NCBI GenBank assembly: GCA_951406725.2
Contig: OX597833.1
Coordinates: 58,156,001 to 58,220,000 of the forward strand
Direction of reading: 5' to 3'
DNA from: Octopus vulgaris
Lineage: Eukaryota
DNA length: 64,000 nt
Numbering within the stretch: the stretch's first letter is position 1; each line of letters starts with the position of its first letter. Made by a program: the position numbers and the translations under genes. Positions 1 to 63,169 of this stretch are shown here, in pieces. Below the pieces are notes generated by a model. It saw nothing but the letters and a program-made list of their open reading frames with translations. It did not search any database and was not told the origin of the DNA.

Positions 1-28
1 TTGAATGCTTGTTACTATGTTCTCATTC

Positions 29-1240
29 TTAATTTTATCAATCAATTTAGCCTTCCATATCTTAGGCATTGATTAAAATAGTCCCAGTGAAGTATTGGAG
101 TCAGTCATTGACTTGCCTTCTTACCTCAAAATTTTTGGTCTTAATTTCATCAATCAATTTAGCCTTCCATATCTTAGGCATTGATTAAAATAGTCCCAGT
201 GAAGTATTGGAGTCAGTCATTGACTTGCCTTCTTACCTCAAAATTTTTGGTCTTAATTTTATCAATCAATTTAGCCTTCCATATCTTAGGCGTTGATTAA
301 AATAGTCCCAGTGAAGTATTGGAGTCAGTCATTGACTTGCCTTCTTACCTCAAAATTTTTGGTCTTAATTTTATCAATCAATTTAGCCTTCCATATCTTA
401 GGCGTTGATTAAAATAGTCCCAGTGAAGTATTGGAGTCAGTCATTGACTTGCCTTCTTACCTCAAAATTTTTGGTCTTAATTTTATTAATCAATTTAGCC
501 TTCCATATCTTAGGCGTTGATTAAAATAGTCCCAGTGAAGTATTGGAGTCAGTCATTGACTTGCCTTCTTACCTCAAAATTTTTGGTCTTAATTTTATCA
601 ATCAGTTTAGCCTTCCATATCTTAGGCATTGATTAAAATAGTCCCAGTGAAGTATTGGAGTCAGTCATTGACTTGCCTTCTTACCTCAAAATTTTTGGTC
701 TTAATTTTATCAATCAATTTAGCCTTCCATATCTTAGGCGTTGATTAAAATAGTCCCAGTGAAGTATTGGAGTCAGTCATTGACTTGCCTTCTTACCTCA
801 AAATTTTTGGTCTTAATTTTATCAATCAATTTAGCCTTCCATATCTTAGGCGTTGATTAAAATAATCCCAGTGAAGTATTGGAGTCAGTCATTGACTTGC
901 CTTCTTACCTCAAAATTTTTGGTCTTAATTTTATCAATCAATTTAGCCTTCCATATCTTAGGCGTTGATTAAAATAGTCCCAGTGAAGTATTGGAGTCAG
1001 TCATTGACTTGCCTTCTTACCTCAAAATGTTTGGTCTTAATTTTATCAATCAGTTTAGCCTTCCATATCTTAGGCATTGATTAAAATAGTCCCAGTGAAG
1101 TATTGGAGTCAGTCATTGACTTGCCTTCTTACCTCAAAATTTTTGGTCTTAATTTTATCAATCAGTTTAGCCTTCCATATCTTAGGCATTGATTAAAATA
1201 GTCCCAGTGAAGTATTGGAGTCAGTCATTGACTTACCTTC
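29..1240. repeat. Tandem array, 112-bp unit, about 10.8 near-identical copies
   Basis: Unit TTAATTTTATCAATCAATTTAGCC...ATTTTTGGTC recurs at 29, 141, 253, 365 and onward (period 112) with only scattered substitutions. Confidence 0.97.
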
Positions 1241-1594
1241 TTTCCCACCATGGGAAAAGTTTTGTTGCAGTGTTAATTTAAATTCGGCTATGGTGGATCG
1301 AATCCTCTTCATGCTAGCAAGATCCACTACAAACATTTACAGCAAAATCTCTTTTATTTCAACATACCTTGTAGTTATGGCTTCATGCAATGGAAATTTT
1401 CAAGAATCAACTGGGAAATACAAGCAAGAAAAGGAACTTAGTTTCTTTACATAAGCTGAAAGATATGTAAATATTTAAATCTTAAATCAATAATTTAACC
1501 TGAATATCTGCTGATATTTCTGTGACAAATTCCAATAACTTCCCTAGATCTGATCCACTTAGTGGCTTAAATACCAGTATGTGGTATTTATAAA

Positions 1595-28146: not shown

Positions 28147-28352
28147 TGTTACGACTTTTACTTCCTCTAAGCGATCGGATTCGGTCGTCTTCTCCGGGCC
28201 ACCAGAGAACGCGCCGACGACGGCGCGGAACGCTGCCGCGCGTAAGCGGACTCGTCGGCCAGATCCGAGGACCTCACCGGACCGTTCGATCGGTAGTAGC
28301 GACGGGCGGTCTGTACAAAGAGCAGGGACGTGATCGACGTGGGCTGATGACC
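28147..28352 (-). rRNA. 18S rRNA 3'-region fragment (helix 44 region), non-functional copy
   Basis: Minus strand reads GTCATCAGC...ACGTCCCTGCTCTTTGTACAGACCGCCCGTCGCTACTACCGAT...TAGAGGAAGTAAAAGTCGTAACA, the conserved eukaryotic SSU motifs. Both ends are truncated. Confidence 0.93.
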
Positions 28353-28366
28353 TATATATATCTGCA

Positions 28367-28411
<45 letters not shown>

Positions 28412-28417
<6 letters not shown>

Positions 28418-28594
28418 GTTATCGCCATACTAATATGGCATTCTTATAAAAATAAGAATAAAGCTGTCCGCTTATTAGCTCCATGAGGCCATCGCCTTAA
28501 GTTAGCTATTTGATACACAAACTGTATCCATATAACCTTCGAACAAGGGAGGTCAGTCGCTCCACACTACTTGACCGGCAGCTACAGACGCGTT
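28412..28594 (-). repeat. 183-bp terminal direct repeat, 3' copy
   Basis: Identical by eye to 33962-34144 (offset 5550); abuts (TA)n. Confidence 0.97.
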
Positions 28595-28622
28595 TCGGGG
28601 TATTGCCCCTTTTCAATGCAGC
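28581..28622 (-). ncRNA. Minimal type I hammerhead ribozyme, U3-A8 variant
   Basis: GCUGCA-UUGAAAA-GGGG(CAAUA)CCCC-GAAA-CGCG-UC^UGUAGC: 6-bp stem I, 4-bp stem II and palindromic stem III. Predicted cleavage between 28587 and 28586. Confidence 0.85.
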
Positions 28623-28905
28623 GTAGCCAGACCAGTAGGTGTCGCTTCTAAAATCTTTATTATGATTATAAAAATCTTACAGAGATAGTACATTACAATA
28701 CAAAACATAATTACAAAAAGTTTACGTTGTTCGTTTGATATTTACATATGTTGATTATTGATTATGATACTAGACTTTACTTTTCTCCTTTTTGTTTTTA
28801 AATTAAAAATGATTTTGGCCAGCTTGGTATATCACAGTCAGGATTCTTACCCGACAGCCTAAGAGCCCAGAGACTATTTTCTCCCTTCATGATGACCAAG
28901 CAGGG

Positions 28906-31900
28906 TTACTCACACCCACCTTTTTTATCACATCCTTCCATCGATTCACATACTTTTTCTGTGTCAGGTTCCTCTTCTCTAAATCCATCTTGCTCTTTAG
29001 ATGGTATCTGAAGTATTTTAACATACCATATTCCAGAGACAAAGGATCCTGACACCAAACCTTCCAATCTAGTTCTCCACACACACTCTTTCAGTACTGC
29101 CACCGTACAGTGAAAACAAGCCTCACCTTCCTTTGAGAGTCCAGCTGGCGGTATCATCTTTATTATAGAACCAGCCGATAGCTGTACTCGTCCCAGATGC
29201 GACAACACGTGTTCTACGTAACTTATTAAGCCTGACAGCTCCTGACAATGTACAAAAGCGTGCTGGACGGTTTCATCGTCCAACCCACATCTTGGACATG
29301 TCGGTGGCATTGACATTCCATGCCTATATAACTTATCGCGAACAGGTAGAGCATTCCTATAGCACTGCCAAGTCAGGGATTTTTGGTAATTGTCCAAATA
29401 CCCCGGCTTGAAAGTCTTCTTAAACAGGTCGTATAGTTGATCCTCATCGAACCCTAGAGCCCCTCTTAGGATGTCGTCATTTTTTGCCTCTACCATCCTT
29501 CTATAAAATGTCGAGGTGGTATTCCCGCAGCCGGCTTTGCCTATCTTGTGGATCAGCCAGAGTGCCTGTCGGCACTCTTTCTGCCATAAAGTCAGATTCC
29601 GTCTTTTAATGAAACCGGGTTTAAATCTCTCCATAGAGTCCGGTTGCGGGAAGAAATTATCTGCCAGCGGACTCCACACCTTATCACCTTCCAGGTGAAA
29701 CCAGAGATGTCTCAGTCTCAGCGCATGCCTGCGCATCATTAACCAAGGCATCCCCAGCCCACCCTTTAGTGGTTCCTGGCAACACACGGAGCGCCTTACA
29801 AGTGGCTTTCCTCCCTTCCACAAAAAGCGGAAAAGGAGTCGATCCAACTTGCTTAGCCACAAATCGGGGCAAGGCACGACAGTCAGGCGATAGGTGATTA
29901 CAGATGCTATAAACACCTGTACCACCTCCGCCCTCCCTTTCAAGGAAAGATGCCTTCCGGACCACTCCCGAACTATGGCTTCTACCTTGGTCACTACCTC
30001 GCTCCAATTTTTCTCCGTCTGGGAGTCTGAACCAAACCAAACTCCAAGCAATTTAACAGGACCATATGTCCAGTGTCCAACAACACTGGACGATATCGGC
30101 TTGTTCCTCCAGGTGCCGAGGCGCAAACCAGTGGACTTGTCCTTGTTAACTTTTGCCCCAGCCACCGCTTCGTATCTTCGGAGAGCACCTTCTACACGAG
30201 TTAGTTGTGCTTCGTTGGACACGATGAAGGTGACGTCATCCGCATACGCAGAAACAGACTTACCGCATCCGATTTCATTAGGATTGCATCTCACCGTCTC
30301 CAACTCCCGCAGCAATGGCTCAAGAGCCAAAACGTACAGGAGAGGGGACAAGGGACATCCTTGACGAACTGAACGCTTAATCGAAAACGGTTCCGTTAAG
30401 TAACCGTTTATCTGGACTGTGGATTTGATACCGCTGTACATAGCTGATATCCACCCGCGAAAGTCAGGACCTAGCCCAGCCGCTTCGAGAACCGTCGCCA
30501 GGTACTGATGATCTACCCTATCAAATGCTTTACTTTGGTCTAAATGGACCAATGCCCCTCCTTTGCCGGCTAATTGCCCAACCCTGTCTATAGTGTAGCG
30601 TAGAAGGTGAAGATTATCTTCGATCGACCTTCCTGGGATTGCACATGTCTGTGCCTTTCCGACAAGTTTTTCCATGACGACCTTCAACCTTTCTGCTAAC
30701 ACCTTGGCCAAAATCTTTAACTCTACATTAAGTAGAGTTATGGGCCTATAATTACTAATATTATCCCCCTTGCTCGGGTCTTTCTGGATCAGCGTCACAA
30801 CTCCCCGGCTCACAGAACTGGGAATCTTCCCATTCTGTTGCCAGTTTGCGTAGACGCTTGCCAGTATGTCCCCGAACAAGTCCGGCATACAACAATAAAA
30901 CTCATAGGGCAGACCATCCAGTCCCGGCGACTTTTCCCGGGCGCATTCAGCCAAAACCCCTCTTACCTCCGCGGGAGTAATCGGTCCTTCACAGCGTTCC
31001 GCTCTGCGTGGCGAGAGCCGATGCCCACCAGCTAGGAAGTTCTGTAAGTCCTCCCCTCGCTCGAGTGGATCGCCCTCCCCAAACAACCGAGCGAAATGCT
31101 GTTGAAAGACCTTCTGTATCTCCTCCTGTCCATAGATTTTGCGTCCCTGTTCGTCAGTTAAAGACTTAATAGAGGACTTTTTGCCCTTCTGACTCTCCAC
31201 ACGACGTGCCCATCCGGCAACATTAATACCTTCTCGTTTCACTGCACGTAGCTTAGCTCTGACTCTACATCCTTCATGCTTGGCATTGAGGTGACGGTAC
31301 AAGATCGTTCTCTCTGCTAACACTCTAGATGCACAGCCAGATCCCATTGCCTCGTCTAAGTTCTTAACTAAATCGCCCTCTATTCTAGTCCTATCTAAAC
31401 TTAGCTGGTTGCTAAATCTAATGGACTCGAAACGGATGGCTCTTTTGAGGGCGATCCACCATCTATTATTAATGATGGTTCCACATAATGCCCTCTGGAC
31501 TAATTCCATAATCCGGTTACGGAAAGCTTCACAAGCCAAAATAGACTTGTTCATTTTCCAGTATCCGGGTCCCTGTCTATGGCATTTATCTACATGTACC
31601 TCACACGTCACTAATTTGTGATCCGTGTAAGGCACAATACAAAATTGTGGACAGCTAATGCTATTCCTATCTCGTTCTTTAACAAATACCCTATCTATAT
31701 ACGATCTGCGTGAGCCGTCATTGTTACTCCACGTCCACTGTGGAATGCTCGGCTCATCCATTCGAAACCGATCTACTAGATTAAGGCTCGTCAGTAGACC
31801 CTTGAGGCAAGGATTTCCCCTTCTATCAGACGAGCCCACACTATCTATCCGCGCATCGATGATAGTGTTGAAATCCCCTACCAATACTACCGTTTTAGAC

Positions 31901-32286
31901 GTCACTAGAAAGTGCTCCAAGTTCCGATAAAAACCAGTCTGCCTACCCTCATTAGGAGCATAAACAGCTACCAACCTGAAGGACTGCTTACTCACGTGAG
32001 TTACATCGAGGACAACCAGCCTACCTTCTGGGTCCATAAAGACAGTACTTACCTGTAAGTCCAAGTTCTTCTTGATAAGGACTGCCACGCCTGCACTTCC
32101 TCCTCGGCTAGGAGAAATAAATTTCTCGTAACCATTGAGAAGATGCGAGAACGCTTGGGTTCCTCTCATCTTGGACTCGGTGACAATGGCTACATCTATT
32201 CTGTGTGTCCTGAGGTCGTCCAGCAAGCAAGCCTGTTTCCATTTCGACCCCATTCCACGCACATTTATACAGCCCAACTTAATCAT
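28906..32286 (-). CDS. LINE ORF2: AP-like endonuclease, reverse transcriptase and C-terminal zinc finger (Tx1-like)
   Basis: 1126 aa. APE motifs INVRG, VYAPN, GDFN, IDRVF, TDHKLV. RT motifs SPGLDG, YRPITLLN, DQSKAFDRVDH, VRQGCPLSP, YADD. Zinc finger CPRC...ETVQHAFVHC. Probable frameshift near 29030. Confidence 0.96.
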   Translation of the reverse strand: MIKLGCINVRGMGSKWKQACLLDDLRTHRIDVAIVTESKMRGTQAFSHLLNGYEKFISPSRGGSAGVAVLIKKNLDLQVSTVFMDPEGRLVVLDVTHVSKQSFRLVAVYAPNEGRQTGFYRNLEHFLVTSKTVVLVGDFNTIIDARIDSVGSSDRRGNPCLKGLLTSLNLVDRFRMDEPSIPQWTWSNNDGSRRSYIDRVFVKERDRNSISCPQFCIVPYTDHKLVTCEVHVDKCHRQGPGYWKMNKSILACEAFRNRIMELVQRALCGTIINNRWWIALKRAIRFESIRFSNQLSLDRTRIEGDLVKNLDEAMGSGCASRVLAERTILYRHLNAKHEGCRVRAKLRAVKREGINVAGWARRVESQKGKKSSIKSLTDEQGRKIYGQEEIQKVFQQHFARLFGEGDPLERGEDLQNFLAGGHRLSPRRAERCEGPITPAEVRGVLAECAREKSPGLDGLPYEFYCCMPDLFGDILASVYANWQQNGKIPSSVSRGVVTLIQKDPSKGDNISNYRPITLLNVELKILAKVLAERLKVVMEKLVGKAQTCAIPGRSIEDNLHLLRYTIDRVGQLAGKGGALVHLDQSKAFDRVDHQYLATVLEAAGLGPDFRGWISAMYSGIKSTVQINGYLTEPFSIKRSVRQGCPLSPLLYVLALEPLLRELETVRCNPNEIGCGKSVSAYADDVTFIVSNEAQLTRVEGALRRYEAVAGAKVNKDKSTGLRLGTWRNKPISSSVVGHWTYGPVKLLGVWFGSDSQTEKNWSEVVTKVEAIVREWSGRHLSLKGRAEVVQVFIASVITYRLTVVPCPDLWLSKLDRLLFRFLWKGGKPLVRRSVCCQEPLKGGLGMPWLMMRRHALRLRHLWFHLEGDKVWSPLADNFFPQPDSMERFKPGFIKRRNLTLWQKECRQALWLIHKIGKAGCGNTTSTFYRRMVEAKNDDILRGALGFDEDQLYDLFKKTFKPGYLDNYQKSLTWQCYRNALPVRDKLYRHGMSMPPTCPRCGLDDETVQHAFVHCQELSGLISYVEHVLSHLGRVQLSAGSIIKMIPPAGLSKEGEACFHCTVAVLKECVWRTRLEGLVSGSFVSGIWYVKILQIPSKEQDGFREEEPDTEKVCESMEGCDKKGGCE

Positions 32287-32557
32287 CGATGAATGAAGAA
32301 AGTTTGTTACTTACGGTTGTGAGAGGGAGCATGGCAGCTTTTGTCTGCCTGCCTCCCCACACTCTCCGTTGTTGCTGGGCATTTAACCGGCGTTGCCACC
32401 GGGCTCTGGGATGGAGTGGCTGCCGGGCTAATATTCAATTTTCCAGCTATCACCTCTTGTGTGACATCTTTAATCAGGTTGTCCCTCACGTGTAGTTGGA
32501 AGAGTCTCTCCTTCCATTCCTCCTCTCCAACCTTCGCATACCTCCAATCCGGGTTTT

Positions 32558-33664
32558 TTATTCCGATGATTTGAAACATTTTATGTTTGGTTTCGCCTTT
32601 ATGTACCAAACTACTCTCTCGTTTTTTGTGTTATAAGCAATGCACCTATCGGTTTTTTTTAATCCTTTTAAAGTTGGGGGCTGGGGTTTAATGAAATGCT
32701 GGCCTACAAAAGTAGTGCCAGCGGGGTGGGATTGGATAATTTTTTTGTGTTGCTCTTCTGCGTTTGTTTTTCTTTTTGTTTGGGGTGGGGAGTCTGGGGT
32801 ATTGGATTTCTTCCTTTTGTTGGTTACAGTCGTATATTCCATCACTTCCAGTTCTTTTCCATTTGATAAATTATTTTCCACCTCGTTTTCGTTTTCGTTT
32901 TGTTTTCCATTCATTTTCTTTTCCTCCTTTTGACTTTCATTTTGCTTTTTCCGGGTATTCTCTTTTGTTGTTGCTGTGATGTCTGCTTTGTTCTCCACAG
33001 CGGTTTGAATGGGGGCATTAACGGGTTTTTTCTTTTTGCACTCTGAGCGGACGTGACCCTTCTGCCCACATTTGAAACATCTGGGCCTACGTCCCTCCAC
33101 CGATACCCGCATAGTGTGTCCATCCCCCACGAAGACCCTGTATGGCAAACTCTCCAGCGTTGCATTGTCAGCTTGAACGATCATTTCAAGCTGCTGACCT
33201 TTCCAAAATTTTGCCTCTTTCATCCTCATGTTTAAAATGTTTAATTTCTCTTCTACGTCGAATACGACCGCTGTTGCTGCCCACATTACATCGTAACCTG
33301 TTGGTATATCCTCTATTGTTACCTTAGCTGTTCTGCGCCCTAAGTACGTGGGCAGCAACAGGATGTCTGCACTCTTCAACGTTTGAGTTGAAATTTCCTT
33401 CGCTATGCTAGCCGACTCGAAATGCGCTTCAATAGTAGCGCTTCTCACTCCTCGGCCAACATAGCGAACCTTGTTCCAAATTGGTGCCATGCACCGTTCT
33501 ACCAATTCATTTTTTACATCTGCAATCTTTTTTTCCTTAATATTATATACCTTATAAATTACCGTCTTCTCACGGATTGCTTGTAAGGTGTCAGGGGGCG
33601 GTATTATTCTCGTTTCTTCTCCATTCCTTTGTATGAACTTTCTGAACTTGAAGAGATCCCCCAT
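32558..33664 (-). CDS. LINE ORF1, gag-like nucleic-acid-binding protein with CCHC knuckle
   Basis: 368 aa with CFKCGQKGHVRSEC and a basic, low-complexity tail. Probably continues to 32307 through a frameshift. Confidence 0.88.
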   Translation of the reverse strand: MGDLFKFRKFIQRNGEETRIIPPPDTLQAIREKTVIYKVYNIKEKKIADVKNELVERCMAPIWNKVRYVGRGVRSATIEAHFESASIAKEISTQTLKSADILLLPTYLGRRTAKVTIEDIPTGYDVMWAATAVVFDVEEKLNILNMRMKEAKFWKGQQLEMIVQADNATLESLPYRVFVGDGHTMRVSVEGRRPRCFKCGQKGHVRSECKKKKPVNAPIQTAVENKADITATTKENTRKKQNESQKEEKKMNGKQNENENEVENNLSNGKELEVMEYTTVTNKRKKSNTPDSPPQTKRKTNAEEQHKKIIQSHPAGTTFVGQHFIKPQPPTLKGLKKTDRCIAYNTKNERVVWYIKAKPNIKCFKSSE

Positions 33665-33961
33665 TGCTACTTCCAGTTCTATAACATTGCCTCCAACACT
33701 TCCGAAAAACTTTGTTTCTCCTTTGTATCCTTTTGCTTTCCATTATTTATAACTTCTCCCATCTCGGGAAAATCAGAATTTGACGTTAAGTCAAGATCCA
33801 TATTAAAATGCAATGACTTGTCACAAGAGACAAGATAAAAATTAATTCCACACTGAATTAAAGTTCATATATAAAAAGAAATTTTCTACCTGTTTTCAAT
33901 AATAGAAATATTAAAATTACTAAGTCTCTCTAAAAGAGAACAACGGCAGCGTTCCCGAAAA

Positions 33962-34144
33962 ATAATAGTTATCGCCATACTAATATGGCATTCTTATAAA
34001 AATAAGAATAAAGCTGTCCGCTTATTAGCTCCATGAGGCCATCGCCTTAAGTTAGCTATTTGATACACAAACTGTATCCATATAACCTTCGAACAAGGGA
34101 GGTCAGTCGCTCCACACTACTTGACCGGCAGCTACAGACGCGTT
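33962..34144 (-). repeat. 183-bp terminal direct repeat, 5' copy
   Basis: On the minus strand it begins AACGCGTC^TGTAGC directly after (TA)n. Confidence 0.97.
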
Positions 34145-47034: not shown

Positions 47035-47641
47035 CCTATTTCTTTACTGCCCACAAGGGGCTAAACACAGAGGGGACAAACAAGTACAGACAAACGGATT
47101 AAGTCGATTATATCGACTCCAGTGCGTAACTGGTACTTAATTTATCGACCCCGAAAGGATGAAAGGCAAAGTCGACCTCGGCGGAACTTGAACTCGGAAC
47201 GTAACGGCAGATGAAATACCTATTTCTATTTCTTTATTACCCACAAGGGGCTAAACACAGAGGGGACAAACAAGTACAGACAAACGGATTAAGTCGATTA
47301 TATCGACCCCAGTGCGTAACTAGTACTTAATTTATCGACCCAGAAAGGATGAAAGGCAAAGTCGACCTCGGCGGAATTTGAACTCACAACGTTGTGACAG
47401 ACGAAATACCTATTTCTTTATTACCCACAAGGGGCTAAACACAGAGAGGACAAACAAGGACAGACATAGGTATTAAGTCGATTACATCGACCCAAGTGCA
47501 TTACTGGTACTTAATTTATCGACCCCGAAAGGACGAAAGGCAAAGTCGACCTCGGCGGAACTTGAACTCGGAACGTAACGGCAGACGAAATACCGCTAAG
47601 CATTTCGCCCGGCGTGCTAACGTTTCTGCCAGCTCGCCGCC
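47035..47641 (-). mobile_element. Head-to-tail trimer of SINE family A
   Basis: Three units of about 190 bp joined at AAAGAAATA-GGTATTTC. Confidence 0.9.
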
Positions 47642-49160: not shown

Positions 49161-50034
49161 CTGGGTTCAGTCCCACTGTGTGGTGACTTGGCATGTGTCT
49201 TCTGCTGTAACCTCAGACCAACAAAAGCCTTCTCAGTGGATTTTGTACATATATACAGGCATACATATATATACATGCATACGTACATATTCGGCATAAA
49301 CACTCTACCACTACAACTAATAACTGTTGGGAACACTTTCAAACCTGCCTTACATTCGAACCGGAATCTCAACGCCCGAGTTTTCCATCTGAAGTTAATC
49401 TCTCTCATGATCCAGCTTTAGACAAAGAACTATACGAAATAGTTAAAGCAAACATGGTACATGGTCCATGTGGGCGTGGATTCAACATAAACACACCATG
49501 CTTGAAGGACAGCATATGTTCAAAAAGATTTCCAAGGAGGTTCCTACAAGAAACTCAGACAGGTGCTGATGGGTATCCATCATACAGACGCAGAAAACTG
49601 GGTTCAGTCCCACTGTGTGGTGACTTGGCATGTGTCTTCTGCTGTAGCCTCAGACCAACAAAAGCCTTCTCAGTGGATTTTGTACATATATACAGGCATA
49701 CATATATATACATGCATACGTACATATTCGGCATAAACACTCTACCACTACAACTAATAACTGTTGGGAACACTTTCAAACCTGCCTTACATTCGAACCG
49801 GAATCTCAACGCCCGAGTTTTCCATCTGAAGTTAATCTCTCTCATGATCCAGCTTTAGACAAAGAACTATACGAAATAGTTAAAGCAAACATGGTACATG
49901 GTCCATGTGGGCGTGGATTCAACATAAACACACCATGCTTGAAGGACAGCATATGTTCAAAAAGATTTCCAAGGAGGTTCCTACAAGAAACTCAGACAGG
50001 TGCTGATGGGTATCCATCATACAGACGCAGAAAA
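49161..50034 (+). repeat. 437-bp tandem duplication (SINE relic plus start of the Rep fragment)
   Basis: 49161-49597 repeats at 49598-50034; matching ATGs at 49454 and 49891. Confidence 0.95.
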
Positions 50035-50430
50035 CCAGAAGACGGAGGTTTCACAGCAACTATCGGACAGCACGATATTGATAATAGATGGATTGTTCCA
50101 TACTGCCCACTCCTGTCAAAGACTTTCAATGTCCACATCAACGTTGAGTTTTGCAACTCCGTTAAATCCATCAAGTACGTTTGCAAATATGTAAACAAGG
50201 GTTCTGACACTGCAATGTTTGGACTTCAACAAGAATACTGCCAGGATGAGGTGACGCATTATCAAGTGGGACAGTACATAAGTAGCAACGAGGCTTTCTG
50301 GCGCATCTTTGGCTTTCCAATTCACCAACGACACCCCGCCATTCAACAGCTTGCAGTGCACCTGGAAAATGGTCAAAGAGTGTACTTCACCGATGCTAAT
50401 GCTTCTCTGTTGGCAGAGGAACCAAGGGCT
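49891..50430 (+). pseudogene. Helitron Rep (HUH) domain fragment
   Basis: MVHGPCG...CSKRFP...DGYPSYRRR...[34 protein letters not shown]. Confidence 0.93.
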
Positions 50431-50432
50431 AG

Positions 50433-50544
50433 GTAGATAAATAGATATATAAATAGCTAGATAGATCGATAGATAGATAGACAGACAGATAGACAGGCAG
50501 ACACAAAGATAGATAGATAGATAGACAGATAGACAGGCAGACAC

Positions 50545-50617
<73 letters not shown>

Positions 50618-50850
50618 TTCTTTATTAGCCACACAGGGCTAAACACTGAGGGGACAATTACAATGTAGAGCTTTTCTTTTCGAGGGGCGCGAAAAAAAAG
50701 GGTCGGGACAATGGTTAAAATGGATCCAAATCGTTGGGAATATAAGCAAAAAATGTCGAAACAGTATAAAAAGTTCCCAAGAAATGGGGAGGTATGTCTC
50801 TGGAAAGAAAAACCTACGAAAAGACCACAGTAACCTCGGGCAATTACGTC
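50433..50850 (-). mobile_element. LINE-like 3'UTR with (ATCT)n tail
   Basis: ...TTGTCCCCTCAGTGTTTAGCCCTGTGTGGCTAATAAAGAAATT followed by (ATCT)n; it truncates the Rep ORF. Confidence 0.55.
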
Positions 50851-50949
50851 ACATATTAATTTATATTTACGAATAAGTAACTCTCTGTATTTAATTTTTT
50901 TACGGTTCATTGGATCATGTTCAATGTGGGGTCGTCATTCATGCGTGCC

Positions 50950-53900
50950 AAATATTATCCAAACTCACAAAAGTGGGTATGCTTCAGTTCTGCTGCCAGT
51001 TGCAGTACACCGCTGCCAAGACGTCTCAAAACAAGTCTGGGATACAATTGCAAAGCGAGACACTGTGGTAGTGGTGACGGTGGTGGTGGCTGCGGTGGCG
51101 GTGGTGATGGTGGTGGTGGTGGTGATGGTGGTAGTGGTGGTGGTGGTCACAATGATGGTGATTGTGGTGGTGGTCGTCGTCGTCGTGGTGATGGTGGTGG
51201 TGTTTGTGGCAGAGTTGTCCTTTGACTGTGAAGCTGTCGTCTGGGTTCTTCCAATTTTTGTCGGTGGCGGAGTTAGCGTCCATGCTCGCACCTGCACCTG
51301 TGTTGCTCCTCCCCTTCCCCCCTCCTTCATGAAGCTGTGGTGAAGGAAGGGTAGGGAAATCAACGTCGAAAAGCGTTGTCAAGGAGACCAGCGTTCTTTT
51401 AGAACGACTACTTCATGGCTTTGAAGTTACCAAAACAGAAATGGCTAAGAAAACCGAAAGCAAATTCTATAAAATCTGGAATCACGCCACACAGGGCAGG
51501 TTTCCCGTGCAAAGAATTTGCACAACCGAATGTTTTAGTTGTTGCACAACTTTTACATAAAAGATATTATCCAAACACAAACTTTTGAAGACAATATTGT
51601 ATAGCGATGGCACTTGTGAAATATGGTAATAGATTTAGTAGCCAAAAGGAGAGAGCAGCGATATAGTATGGTGGTGTTGGTGGCGGTGGAAATAGCGACG
51701 GCGGAATGGTGGTAGTGGCAGCGGCGGTGGTGGTGGTGGTGGTCATGGTGGTAGTGGTGGTGGTGGTGGTGGTGGTCATGGCGGTAGTGGTGATGGTGGT
51801 CGTGGTAGTGGTGGTGGTGGTGGTGGTGGTAGTGGTGGTGGTGGTCATGGTGGTAGTGGTAGTGGTGGTGGTCATGGTGGTAGTGGTGATGGTGGTAGTG
51901 GTCGTGGTGGTAGTGGTGGTGGTGGTGGTCATGGTGGTAGTGGTGGTGGTCATGGTGGTAGTGGTGGTAGTGGTGGTGGTCATGGTGGTAGTTGTGATGG
52001 TGGTGGTGGTCATGGTGGTTGTTGTGGTGGTGGTAGTAGTGGTTGTGGTCATGGTGGTAGTGGTGGTGGTGGTCATGGTGGTAGTGGTGATGGTGGTGGT
52101 GGTCATGGTGGTGGTGCTGATCATGGTGGTAGTGGTGGTGGTGTTAGTGGTGGTAGTGGTCATTGTGGTAGTGGTGGTGGTGGTCATGGTGGTAGTGGTG
52201 GTCGTCGTCGTGGTGATGGTGCTGGTGTTTGTGGCAGAGTTGTCCTTTGACTGTGAAGCTGTCGTCTGGGTTCTTCCAATTTTTGTCGGTGGCGGAGTTA
52301 GCGTCCATGCTCACACCTGCACCTGTGTTGCTCCTCCCCTTCCCCCCTCCTTCATGAAGCTGTGGTGAAGGAAGGGTAGGGAAATCAACGTCGTAAGCGT
52401 TGTCAAGGCGACTAGCGTTCTTTTAGAACGACGACTTCATGGCTTTGAAGTCGCCAAAACAGAAATGGCTAAGAAAGCCGAAAGCAAATTCTACAAAATC
52501 GGGAAACACGCCACACAGGGAAGGTTTCCCGTGCAAAGAATTTGCACAACCGAATGTTTTAGTTGTTGCACAACTTTTACATAAAAGATATTATCCAAAC
52601 ACACACTTTTGAAGACAATATTGTATAGCGATGGCACTTGTGAAATATGGTAATAGATTTAGTAGCCAAAAGGAGAGAGCAGCGATATAGTATGGTGGTG
52701 TTGGAAATAGCGACGGCGGAATGGTGGTAGTGGCAGCGGCGGTGGCGGTGGTGGTGGTGGTGGTCATGGTGGTAGTGATGGTGGTGGTCATTGTGGTAGG
52801 GGTGATGGTGGTGGTGGTAGTGGTGGTGGTGGTCATGGTGGTATTGGTGGAGGTGGTAGTGATGGTGGTGGTGGTCATGGTGGTAGTGGTGGTTGAGGTA
52901 GTGGTGGTGGTGGTCATGGTGGTAGTGGTGGTGTGGTGGTGGTGGTGGTGGTGGTGGTGATCATGGTGGTGGTGGTCATGGTGGTAGTGTTGAAGGTGGT
53001 GGTGGTGGTCATGGTGGTATTGGTGGTAGTGGTGGTGGTGGTGATGGTGGTAGTGGTGGTGGTGGTCATGGTGGTAGTAGAGGTTGTGGTAGTGGTGGTG
53101 GTGGTCATGGTGGTAGTGGTGATGGTGATAGTGGTGTGGTGGTGGTGGTGGTCGTCGTGGTGGTGATGGTGGTGGTGTTTGTGGCAGAGTTGTCCTTTGA
53201 CTGTGAAGCTGTCGTCTGGTTTCTTCCAATTCTTCGTGTGTCGGTGGCGGAGTTGACGTCCATGGTCGCACCTGCACCTGTGTTGCTCCTCCCCTCCTTC
53301 CCTCCTTCATGAAGCTGTGGTGAAGGAAGGGTAGGGAAATCAACGTCGTAAGCGTTGTCAAGGAGACCAGCGTTCTTTTAGAACAACGACTTCATGGCTT
53401 TGATGTCGCCAAAACAGAAATGGCTAAGAAAGCCGAAAGCAAATTCTACAAAATCGGGAAACACGCCACACAGGGAAGGTTTCCCGTGCAAAGAATTTGC
53501 ACAACCGAATGTTTTAGTTGTTGCACAACTTTTACATAAAATATATTATCCGAACACACAAACTTTTGAAGGCAATAAAAAGGCAAACTTGAAGACAATA
53601 TTGTATGGCGATGGTACTTGTGAAATATGGTTATAGATTTAGTAGCCAAAAGGAGAAAGCAGAGGTATAGTATGGTGGTGTTGGTGGCGGTGGAAATAGC
53701 GACGGCGGAATGGTGGTAGTGGCAGCGGCAGTGGCGGTGGTGGTGGTGGTGGTGGTGGTAGTGGTGGTGGTGGTCATGGTGGTAGTGGTGATGGTGGTGG
53801 TCGTGGTCGTGGTCGTGGTCGTCGTCGTCGTGGTGATGGTGCTGGTGTTTGTGGCAGAGTTGTCCTTTGACTGTGAAGCTGTCGTCTGGGTTCTTCCAAT

Positions 53901-54245
53901 TTTTGTCGGTGGCGGAGTTGGCGTCCATGCTCGCACCTGCACCTGTGTTGCTCCTCCCCTCCTTCCCTCCTTCATGAAGCTGTGGGGAAGGCAGGGTAGG
54001 GAAATCAACGTCGTAAGCGTTGTCAAGGAGACCAGTGTTCTTTTAGAACGACGACTTTATGGCTTTGAAGTGACCAAAACAGGAAATGGCTAAGAAAGCC
54101 GAAAGCAAATTCTACAAAATCGGGAAACACGCCACACAGGGCAGGTTTCCCGTGCAAAGAATTTGCACAACCGAATGTTTTAGTTGTTGCACAACTAATA
54201 CATAAAAAATATTATCCAAACACAAACTTTTGAAGTTTAGTATTG
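50950..54245. repeat. Four-unit tandem array: about 510-bp conserved block plus variable (GGT)n-type tract
   Basis: Anchor GTGTTTGTGGCAGAGTTGTCC at about 51200, 52225, 53175 and 53845. Confidence 0.92.
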
Positions 54246-54441
54246 TCTTTTTTTTTGTTTTTAACGCTTGTGCAAAATTGGATTTGTTTCTGGTGGTAGT
54301 GTTGGTGGTAGTGTTGGTGTCACTTGTAGTGGTTGAGGTTGTAGTAGTGGTGTCGTTGTTGGCAGTAATGGTAGACGGCAAAACGACGATATCGTTGCTG
54401 TTGTTGTTGTCGTTGGTGGAGGTGGTGGTGACGGTGGTGGT

Positions 54442-54890
54442 GGAATTTCTCAATTCACTGGAGCCTCTTGGACTACCTATACATATTAGCACTTAAAGTT
54501 GGAACTCCTGTAATGCTACTCCGCAATCTGGAACCACCAAGACTTTGCAATGCAACACGACTGGCGATAAAGAAAATGATGTCACACGTTATCGAGGCGA
54601 TCATTCTTTCTGGATGTGGAAAAGCTGATGACGTCTTTATTCCAAGAATTCCTCTTACTCCATCAGGAGCAGAAATTCCATTTACATTCAGAAGACTGCA
54701 ATTCCCCCTTTGTGTCAGCTTTGCCATGTCCATTAACAAATCTCAGGGTCAAACCCTCTCTGTAGCTGGTCTTCTCTTGGAAGAGCCCTGCTTCTCGCAT
54801 GGGCAACTGTATGTTGGCTGCTCAAAAAACCTTTTTGTATATGCTCCACAAGGAAAAACAAGGAACATTGTTTACAACGAGGTGTTATAA
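54442..54890 (+). pseudogene. Helitron PIF1-like helicase C-terminal fragment
   Basis: EFLNSLEPLGLP / LKVGTPVMLLRNL..PRLCN.TRL...RLQFPL..SFAMSINKSQGQTL...FSHGQLYV. Confidence 0.93.
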
Positions 54891-61541: not shown

Positions 61542-61956
61542 ATATTTCTTTACTACCCACAAGGGGCTTAAATAGAGAGAGGACAAACAAGGACAGACAT
61601 ACGGATTAAGTTGATTATATCGACCCCAGTGCGTAACTGGTACTTATTTAATCAACCCCGAAAGGATGAAGGGCAAAGTCGACCTCGGCGGAATTTGAAC
61701 TCAGAACGTAGCGGCAGACGAAATCCCTATTTCCTATTTCTTTACTACCCACAAGGGGCTAAACATAGAGAGGACAAACAAGGACAGACATACGGATTAA
61801 GTTGATTACATCGACCCCAGTGCGTAACTGGTACTTATTTAATCGACCCCGAAAGGATGAAGGGTAAAGTCGACCTCGGCGGAATTTGAACTCAGAACGT
61901 AACGGCAGACGAAATACGGCTACGCATTTCGCCCGGCGTGCTAACGTTTCTGCCAG
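61542..61956 (-). mobile_element. Head-to-tail dimer of SINE family A
   Basis: Two units joined at the tail / ATTTCGTCTGCCG junction. Confidence 0.88.
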
Positions 61957-61981
61957 TGTGTCTCCCTCTGTCCCTCTTTGT

Positions 61982-62064
<83 letters not shown>

Positions 62065-62169
62065 TATATCGTAAAAAGAGAGAAAATATTTTTTCGAGCA
62101 AAGCTTTAGGCGAAGTGCTCAAAAAAACTGAAAAGACTATATTTTATAAATGACTCGCAAGAGATACTT

Positions 62170-62409
62170 CGAAATATAAAGATCTTATTCACACTGAATG
62201 AATCAGTAAGTCTCACCTACATGCGCACAGTGGCCTGCTTCCCTCTGTCCTCCCACCTCGGGATCTTTCTTTCTTCTATGTTTCCGACGAAGAGCTCCGC
62301 TCGAAACGTCATACCCTCCTTCTTCCCTTCTTTCCTGAGCGCCCAATAATACTTTATTTGTTCCACATCCTCGCGTTGTTGTCTTTTTGTTTTCTTGTTT
62401 GGATTAACT
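62170..62409 (+). mobile_element. Penelope-like end with degenerate hammerhead motif (62284-62310)
   Basis: CCGACGA-A-GAGC(UCC)GCUC-GAAA-CGUC; the segment ends at (TA)n. Confidence 0.5.
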
Positions 62410-63169
62410 ATATATATATATATATTTATTTACTACCCACAAGGGGCCAAACACAGAGGGGACAAACAAGGACAGACAAACGGATCAAGTCGATTAGATC
62501 GACCCCAGTGCGAAACTGGTACTTTATTTATCGACCCCGAAAGGATGAAAGGCAAAGTCAACCTCGGCGGAATTTGAACTCAGAACATAACGACAGACGA
62601 AATACCGCTATGCATTTCGCCCGGCGCGCTAACGTGTCTGCCAGCTATAAGTATGCATGTTTATCTATCCATATTATATATATATCATCCATCTTTCTTT
62701 TCCTCACGTGATCACCTTCCTTTACTTTCAGGGCTGTCCTTGAGGTTGGATGCCTCCTATCTATTTCTCTCTTCTAATCTTTTCTCTTGTCAAAGAAAAT
62801 ATTTCTCCAGCGTTCGCTATTTTCCTCTCATTCTGGTCTAACAACCATCCATATCTGTTTTCGTTCGGTTTCCTTGTATGTCTCCACTGTCCTGTTTTTG
62901 TTCACAGACGTTGACCGTCCCTAAATTCCGAATTCTATTTTGGTATTTGTGGACGGAGCTGCCTTCGAAGACTCATACAATGCTCGAAATGAGGAATAGA
63001 CAGGCAGCCAACAACTGATGAAGGGTCGTTCTTTATGTTACTTGTCCTATTTTCCATTTGTTTCTCTCATTGTCTGCGTATTGAACTCATTTGTTTTCGT
63101 ATTCCATATATCTATCTATCTATATATATATATATATATATATACATATATACATGTATATATATATAC

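What the first reader, a model, noticed from the sequence alone, without database searches (positions are those of the whole stretch)
28412..33961. Alternative reading: the Tx1 LINE inserted into a 268-nt retrozyme-like unit
Seen: TCTAAAA occurs at 28647-28653, just beyond the LINE's AATAAAGA, and again at 33929-33935. Removing the LINE and one copy leaves about 1.7 tandem monomers of a 268-nt hammerhead-containing unit. The rejoined junction can fold as GUUG-UUCU(cuuuu)AGAA-G-CGAC. Known: metazoan non-LTR retrozymes are short tandem units of a few hundred nt with type I hammerheads, and many Tx1-clade LINEs target specific repeats such as snRNA, tRNA, 5S genes or other transposons. Inference: this may be a LINE that targets a retrozyme family. 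A 7-bp match in AT-rich DNA could also be chance.
Basis: inference. Interest (0 to 1): 0.72.

Follow-up and report, generated by a model that had tools for sequence, protein, structure and literature searches.

The report
LINE targeting hammerhead retrozyme start sites
A family of jumping genes inserts again and again at one exact base of a small self-cleaving RNA repeat, and its relatives do the same in other such repeats and at the first base of U1 and U2 snRNA genes, so it likely homes to the start site of snRNA-type promoters and would borrow the host's promoter and ribozyme to make its own RNA.

Summary
The idea holds; the details do not. The hammerhead repeat is a 363-nt retrozyme (at least 1,100 LINE-free sites), not 268 nt. 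TCTAAAA is no duplication: the second copy is native repeat sequence and the predicted empty junction was never found. The window copy has lost the LINE's first 128 nt and 54 nt of target, hiding the real 16-nt duplication. Genome-wide, 21 LINE 3' junctions at 16 loci sit at this same base; 5'-truncated copies and mismatched LINE/flank haplotypes show repeated independent insertion. Sister LINE families (about 80-85% identical) insert 26-36 nt upstream of hammerhead cores in other repeat families (40 of 84 flanks; shuffles 5 of 1,680) and at nucleotide +1 of U1 and U2. An ATCAGTG box lies 57-61 nt upstream of U1/U2/U5 genes and, at the same distance, upstream of the retrozyme sites. Two displaced copies carry 14-16-nt heads starting exactly at a host +1. 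Best reading: an L1/Tx1-type lineage targeting start sites of snRNA-type promoters, likely transcribed by the host promoter and 3'-cleaved by the host ribozyme. Start sites, cleavage and tethering are inferred, not shown.

The parts
28369..28414 (.). (TA)23 microsatellite into which the retrozyme locus is inserted
   Evidence: LINE-free copies also end at m1 or m301 against (TA)n
28412..28649 (-). Retrozyme monomer m1-238, downstream of the LINE on the sense (minus) strand
   Evidence: 99.2% to a LINE-free monomer
28581..28622 (-). Type I hammerhead: core UUGAAAA (28616-28610, U3-A8 variant), stem II GGGG/CCCC, GAAA, palindromic CGCG stem III, predicted cleavage after GUC between 28587 and 28586; stem I extends to 28649
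   Evidence: sequence, fold z -2.98; related family and Penelope ends show the same UUGA core with changed stems; no Rfam hit at gathering score; cleavage untested
28634..28649 (-). 16-nt target (duplicated in intact copies); 28649 is the predicted transcription +1 of the retrozyme
   Evidence: +1 inferred
28650..33890 (-). L1/Tx1-type LINE, no poly(A) tail (4-nt tail 28650-28653), lacking its first 128 nt
28906..32286 (-). ORF2, 1126 aa, open: AP endonuclease, reverse transcriptase, zf-RVT
32314..33801 (-). ORF1 with CCHC zinc knuckle; broken in this copy (frameshifts and a stop), 493 aa in intact sister copies
33891..33961 (-). Retrozyme m293-363; includes the native TCTAAAA (m331-337). The promoter-like box (m288-295) and AT-rich box (m258-266) are lost or cut in this copy
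33962..34144 (-). Retrozyme m1-183, identical to 28412-28594, truncated inside the hammerhead, followed by (TA)n

Best explanation
This is an L1/Tx1-type LINE that inserts repeatedly, in the sense direction and with a 16-nt duplication, at one base of a 363-nt hammerhead retrozyme, a base that is likely the transcription start of an snRNA-type promoter inside the repeat. Shown: one insertion base in 21 junctions; independent insertions; the same behaviour of sister families in other hammerhead repeats and at +1 of U1 and U2; a shared upstream box at -57 to -61. Inferred step 1: the box is the proximal sequence element (PSE), so the retrozyme is transcribed like U1/U2 from this base. Inferred step 2: a LINE placed at +16 is transcribed by the host promoter, reads through its tail-less 3' end, and is cut by the intact hammerhead 63 nt further on, so host promoter and host ribozyme would set both RNA ends. 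Inferred step 3: target choice combines position (tethering to, or nicking of DNA opened by, the PSE-bound initiation complex) with pairing of the read-through RNA to the nicked target strand. The retrozyme, itself likely spread by Penelope-like elements, supplies a renewable, harmless pool of targets. The window copy is a dead example: ORF1 broken, 5' end and promoter box deleted.
For: Same site: 21 of 22 pattern matches are LINE junctions, the 22nd is a LINE-free deletion; 21 of the 22 scored 3' ends at 96% identity or more lie there (40 of 68 candidates scored). Independence: truncated copies L093 (2047 nt, about 16-nt duplication), a 66-nt copy in L100 (10-nt duplication) and a 2245-nt copy in the C2 array (small target deletion); L093's LINE is 1.5-2.9 substitutions/kb from most of the youngest group but lies in a different flank haplotype; flank sub-haplotypes G186A and G188A also occur in LINE-free loci; three LINE-16nt-LINE tandems. 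Sister families: hammerhead 15-50 nt from the LINE end in 15/28, 18/29, 7/27 flanks versus 0/560, 4/580, 1/540 shuffles; U2 +1 in 5 of 29; U1 +1 at two junctions in the U1 cluster. Promoter box: a matrix built from U1/U2/U5 upstream regions scores best at -57 among 726 positions of the monomer, and in the top two at -57 to -60 in 12 of 14 sister 5' flanks; absent (3-5 mismatches) at the off-target sites listed. RNA start: L112 sits off-target with a U1 nt 1-16 head; L260 sits in U2 with a 14-nt head from a retrozyme site. In both, the new target shares 6 nt with the head, as RNA pairing predicts. The U1-headed copy's endonuclease is 95.4% identical to the retrozyme-located one, like its RT (95.6%), although the two targets share almost no sequence. 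Precedent: newt satellite 2, a hammerhead repeat, has an snRNA-type promoter (cited in PMC2220036).
Against: No raw RNA reads: start site, cleavage and expression are not shown. The window family's box is degenerate (ACAAGTGG, 2 mismatches to ATCAGTG) and the ATCAGTG seed was chosen by me after seeing the flanks. 44 of 84 sister flanks fail the strict hammerhead scan (some are U2, tandem LINEs or decayed ribozymes; many are true off-target sites), and most sister targets begin AT[CT], on- or off-target, so plain sequence preference contributes. Several truncated sister copies in hammerhead-type sites show no box upstream (L218, L281, L285, L291-293; causes not examined). 16 of 21 junctions are full-length, LINE age tracks flank subfamily, and L094 and L099 look like Penelope-type copying of a LINE-bearing retrozyme, so not every copy is an independent insertion. 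No insertion at U5 +1 was met (not searched for directly).
Confidence: 0.7

Rival explanations
1. Repeated targeting is real but needs no promoter factor: each family's endonuclease preference plus pairing of its read-through RNA returns it to the same sequence, and only lineages that once landed at a +1 were transcribed and survived.
For: Sister targets and off-targets mostly start AT[CT]; older window-lineage off-targets start ATAC; L112 and L260 moved to sites sharing 6 nt with their donor flank; known Tx1 specificity is attributed mainly to the endonuclease (PMC4494074).
Against: The switch from U1 (ATACTT) to this retrozyme (AGAAGC/GGAAGC) kept the distance from the box but not the sequence, with an endonuclease no more diverged than the RT; it would need one lucky landing followed by selection.
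Confidence: 0.22
2. One LINE landed once in a retrozyme and the composite was then copied as cargo by the Penelope machinery that spreads the retrozyme.
For: All 16 full-length copies share the same 5' junction; composite loci have the same (TA)n ends and inverted arms as LINE-free loci; L094 (LINE cut at 690 nt, joined by 6-nt microhomology to an inverted arm) and L099 (discordant 3' flank) fit this route.
Against: Truncated copies with their own duplications, a young LINE in an old flank haplotype, LINE-16nt-LINE tandems, and parallel targeting of several other repeat families and of U1/U2 by sister LINEs.
Confidence: 0.07
3. The flanking repeats are the LINE's own pseudo-LTRs, or the target is a 268-nt unit with a 7-bp duplication.
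For: In this window alone the LINE is bracketed by identical repeats and TCTAAAA occurs twice.
Against: At least 1,100 LINE-free sites, 363-nt period, native TCTAAAA, 0 predicted empty junctions, older LINE copies without the repeat.
Confidence: 0.01

Closest known systems
Target-specific Tx1-clade LINEs (Tx1L in Tx1D, Keno in U2, Tx1-Mar in Mariner-N4_AMi; PMC4494074 passages and part 3 of 5, PMC4640811 passages)
   Same: Two ORFs with AP endonuclease and RT; preference for multicopy RNA genes or other transposons; tandem insertion; some Tx1-Mar families carry U1/U2-derived 5' heads.
   Different: Targets here are hammerhead retrozymes of several families plus U1 and U2, united by position relative to an upstream box rather than by one sequence; insertion is at nucleotide +1. 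No retrozyme target was found in the papers searched.
Metazoan non-LTR retrozymes / newt satellite 2 (PMC7229834 passages; bioRxiv 10.64898/2026.07.22.740005 part 1 of 5; PMC2220036 passage citing Coats 1994)
   Same: Tandem monomer of about 360 nt with a type I hammerhead, strongly folded, non-coding, co-existing with Penelope elements; snRNA-type promoter reported for newt satellite 2.
   Different: U3-A8 core variant; hosts an autonomous LINE at its predicted start; no matching Penelope pseudo-LTR found among 30 GIY-YIG loci examined.
Promoter-tethered retrotransposons TRE5-A (L1 clade, ORF1 binds TFIIIB) and Ty3 (1-4 nt from the Pol III start) (PMC5911963 passages)
   Same: Position-specific integration relative to a small-RNA promoter.
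   Different: Those use Pol III tRNA/5S promoters; here the box is shared with Pol II snRNA genes, the LINE lies in sense just inside the transcript, and tethering is untested.
R2 elements (abstract listing PMC3414825)
   Same: Co-transcription from the host gene and release by a self-cleaving ribozyme.
   Different: R2 encodes its own 5' ribozyme; here the ribozyme belongs to the target and would set the 3' end.

Membership tests
Non-LTR retrozyme | Short tandem monomer (a few hundred nt) | tested here: met
   362-364 nt in 20 of 20 monomers, dimers to hexamers
Non-LTR retrozyme | Type I hammerhead in each monomer | tested here: met
   Core and stems present by sequence and fold; variant core, no Rfam hit
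Non-LTR retrozyme | Self-cleavage and circular RNA | not testable with these tools
   Only contigs were available
Non-LTR retrozyme | Related to a Penelope pseudo-LTR | tested here: inconclusive
   Penelope family with 781-aa ORFs and UUGAUAA hammerheads present, but no pseudo-LTR similarity in 30 of 148 loci examined; inverted arms and (TA)n ends are Penelope-like (recalled)
L1 group LINE | ORF1 plus ORF2 with AP endonuclease, RT, C-terminal zinc domain; nearest solved protein L1 ORF2p | tested here: met
   (L1 ORF2 E 1e-65 versus R2 E 5e-23)
L1 group LINE | Target-primed insertion marks: fixed 3' end, 5' truncation, target duplication | tested here: met
Tx1 clade | RT groups with named Tx1 elements | not tested
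   No named Tx1 sequence came; the tree has none. Label rests on architecture and recall
Tx1 clade | Target specificity (over 20% of flanks, criterion of PMC4494074) | tested here: met
   21 of 22 young copies; 26-62% in sister sets
snRNA-type (PSE) promoter | Upstream box shared with U1/U2/U5 at the same distance | tested here: met
   degenerate in the window family; not seen in 12 U6 loci
snRNA-type (PSE) promoter | Initiation at the predicted base; SNAPc dependence | not testable with these tools
   Indirect only: two displaced heads begin at +1
LINE with pseudo-LTRs | Repeat found only attached to the LINE | tested here: not met
   At least 1,102 LINE-free sites

The most novel reading that the evidence does not exclude
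A LINE lineage is tethered to the snRNA transcription machinery (SNAPc/PSE), inserts at the start site of any PSE-driven unit whatever its sequence, and has become a hyperparasite of hammerhead retrozymes that outsources both ends of its RNA: the host promoter makes the 5' end and the host ribozyme makes the 3' end in place of a poly(A) tail.
Probability: 0.45. Interest if true: 0.88.

Novelty: new variant of a known kind. Interest (0 to 1): 0.74.

Why it matters
It would be a promoter-guided route to site-specific LINE insertion for Pol II snRNA-type genes, parallel to TRE5/Ty3 at Pol III genes, in an animal genome that holds seven copies with both ORFs open. The insertions also act as natural start-site mapping for retrozymes, extending the newt satellite-2 promoter result to many families in a mollusc-like genome, and they suggest how target switches happen without endonuclease change. 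Safe-harbour LINEs are of interest as gene-insertion tools.

Tried and rejected
268-nt unit, 7-bp duplication, pseudo-LTR model: rejected. Rfam did not detect the hammerhead. Search for an autonomous Penelope with a matching pseudo-LTR: none in 30 loci; one locus held only a related 81-84% retrozyme; no convincing box upstream of five Penelope hammerheads. Sequencing runs: no RNA holder listed on record; contigs covered repeat and LINE and one bridged the 3' junction, which says nothing on start, cleavage or level; none of the listed contigs from four runs bridged the window's own 5' deletion junction, and loose ends showed the undeleted forms, so whether that deletion is an allele or an assembly feature is open. 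Named Tx1 references were not obtained. Two rows of the RT tree (L197, L214) were contaminated by other RT hits and were ignored. Coats 1994 was not held. Earlier findings of the scan: none returned. The adjacent 18S fragment is unrelated to the element.

Full report
Observation. The window holds a minus-strand LINE (ORF2 1126 aa with AP endonuclease, RT and zf-RVT; ORF1 with a zinc knuckle) between two partial copies of a repeat with a type I hammerhead (core UUGAAAA, predicted cut between 28587 and 28586; fold z -2.98). Both TCTAAAA heptamers exist. The genome is 2.8 Gb; the nearest named protein is from Argonauta hians (63%), so an octopod host is my inference.

The unit is 363 nt. A genome search with the left repeat gave 970 candidates; most scored copies matched only its first 238 nt and continued GACAATC. 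Complete monomers are 362-364 nt (20 of 20) and fold with z -6.27. Exact empty sites number 761 (CC type) and 341 (CT type) (these counts include the 5' sides of filled copies). Copies are tandem or inverted and end against (TA)n. The second TCTAAAA is native monomer (m331-337). The predicted empty junction follows none of 22 pattern matches and is absent from 362 loci.

One insertion base. 21 of those 22 matches are LINE 3' ends, at 16 loci; the other is a LINE-free deletion. Of 22 scored 3' ends at 96% identity or more, 21 are at this site; none of the nine older loci examined (L052-L060) is (40 of 68 candidates scored). Sixteen copies are full length with a 16-nt duplication whose last base (T or C) matches the local haplotype on both sides. 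The window copy lacks 128 nt of LINE 5' end and m239-292 of target, which produced the apparent 268-nt unit. Seven of the 21 have both ORFs open.

Independent insertion or cargo? I used the test of PMC4494074 (truncated copies). L093 is cut at 2047 nt and still has the duplication; a 66-nt copy in L100 has a 10-nt duplication; a 2245-nt copy ends a five-LINE array in which three LINEs are separated by the bare 16 nt. L093's LINE belongs to the youngest group and carries its TAAA tail but lies in a CT flank, while the rest of that group lies in CC flanks; CC sub-haplotypes beside LINEs also occur in LINE-free loci. Against this, L094 and L099 may be Penelope-type copies of a LINE-bearing retrozyme, and LINE age tracks flank subfamily. 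Repeated targeting is needed; some cargo copying may add to it.

The behaviour is lineage-wide. Sister families, about 80-85% identical in DNA and monophyletic with this one against outside proteins, were surveyed through 90 loci from three searches (30 of 40-41 matches each; 6 dropped because the match began inside the 3' UTR). A tolerant hammerhead scan found a core 15-50 nt from the LINE end in 15 of 28, 18 of 29 and 7 of 27 flanks, against 0 of 560, 4 of 580 and 1 of 540 shuffles; hits cluster at 26-36 nt and belong to several repeat families that do not align with the window's monomer. Five of 29 flanks in one set are U2 from nucleotide 1. Two junctions of an older window-lineage copy lie at U1 nucleotide 1 in the U1 cluster, one with a 16-nt duplication in a tandem. 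The remaining flanks are off-target sites, tandem LINEs or decayed ribozymes that I did not count as hits.

What the sites share. Upstream regions of U1, U2 and U5 genes carry ATCAGTG at -57 to -61; 12 U6 loci do not (two U2 loci preceded by a LINE were left out). A matrix from these genes scores best, among all 726 positions of the 363-nt monomer on both strands, at -57 from the insertion base, and is in the top two at -57 to -60 in 12 of 14 sister 5' flanks (14 of 20 fetched loci had a usable flank, three off-target ones lacked the box, three were unusable; for six of the 14 the hammerhead side was not seen). Truncated sister copies with 11-17-nt duplications in hammerhead-type sites show the box with 0-2 mismatches in seven cases and lack it in about six; off-target sites have 3-5 mismatches. 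I call the box a PSE from its position (recalled knowledge); the seed was chosen after seeing the data. Newt satellite 2 has an snRNA-type promoter according to a passage in PMC2220036; the original paper was not held.

Where the RNA starts and ends. Among 21 distinct full-length 5' junctions, two have foreign heads: L112 lies off-target but begins with U1 nt 1-16, and L260 lies in U2 but begins with 14 nt of a retrozyme site. Both heads start exactly at the host's predicted +1, and both new targets share 6 nt with the head. This supports transcription from the host promoter and pairing of read-through RNA with the nicked target. No copy has a poly(A) tail and the 3' end is fixed; the hammerhead is left whole 63 nt downstream, so it would cut the read-through. 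The endonuclease of the U1-headed copy is 95.4% identical to the retrozyme-located one, as is the RT (95.6%), though the two targets share little sequence, which favours a positional signal. Most sister targets begin AT[CT], so sequence also matters.

Comparison with print. Tx1 elements that target RNA genes or other transposons, U1/U2 heads on Tx1-Mar, retrozymes, and Pol III-tethered TRE5/Ty3 are known (PMC4494074: passages and part 3 of 5; PMC4640811, PMC7229834, PMC5911963, PMC2220036: passages; bioRxiv 10.64898/2026.07.22.740005: part 1 of 5). Eight full-text searches listed no paper whose title or abstract describes a LINE targeting retrozymes or snRNA start sites; subscription papers, Repbase entries and supplements were not seen and could hold it. 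Tx1 membership by RT phylogeny was not tested.

Verdict. Site-specific targeting of retrozymes is well supported (about 0.9); the link to an snRNA-type start site is likely (about 0.75); tethering and ribozyme-made 3' ends are untested (about 0.45). New variant of a known kind; interest 0.74.

Noticed in passing
window 28147-28345 (-): 3'-terminal fragment of 18S rRNA right beside the (TA)n; one of many dispersed rDNA fragments in the genome (78 candidates), not part of the element.
   Followed up: partly
L095-L098 (G000:C2:73.04-73.07 Mb): Array of five LINE copies, three separated only by the 16-nt target, inside one retrozyme locus.
   Followed up: yes
L260, about 1700-1800; L112 5' end: LINE copies with foreign 14-16-nt heads (retrozyme head in U2; U1 head off-target).
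   Followed up: yes
L171, L176, L187, L190 and others: Abundant Penelope-like family with many open 781-aa frames and hammerheads with a UUGAUAA core; its ends do not match the 363-nt unit.
   Followed up: partly
L183:1-292: A sister retrozyme family 81-84% identical to the 363-nt unit, with changed stems II and III; also seen as loose ends in public runs.
   Followed up: partly
L226, L229, L231: Three sister-family LINEs inserted at the start of ORF2 (ATCAATG...) of another copy of the same LINE lineage, with 18-nt duplications.
   Followed up: no
L225 and L091; L271 and L099: LINEs of different sister families lie within a few kb of each other, each in its own retrozyme family: nested hot spots.
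   Followed up: no
L255: A sister-family LINE inserted next to TTAGGG-like repeats with a 17-nt duplication.
   Followed up: no
window 27-1242: 112-nt tandem repeat, 10.9 copies, 98% identical.
   Followed up: no
window 49161-54890: Broken frames resembling a Helitron helicase (recalled motif, not tested), with a 437-nt duplication and long (TGG)n tracts.
   Followed up: no
window 6976-46702 (nine places); 47035-47594, 61543-62644: Two families of dispersed SINE-like repeats, one in 190-nt tandem units.
   Followed up: no
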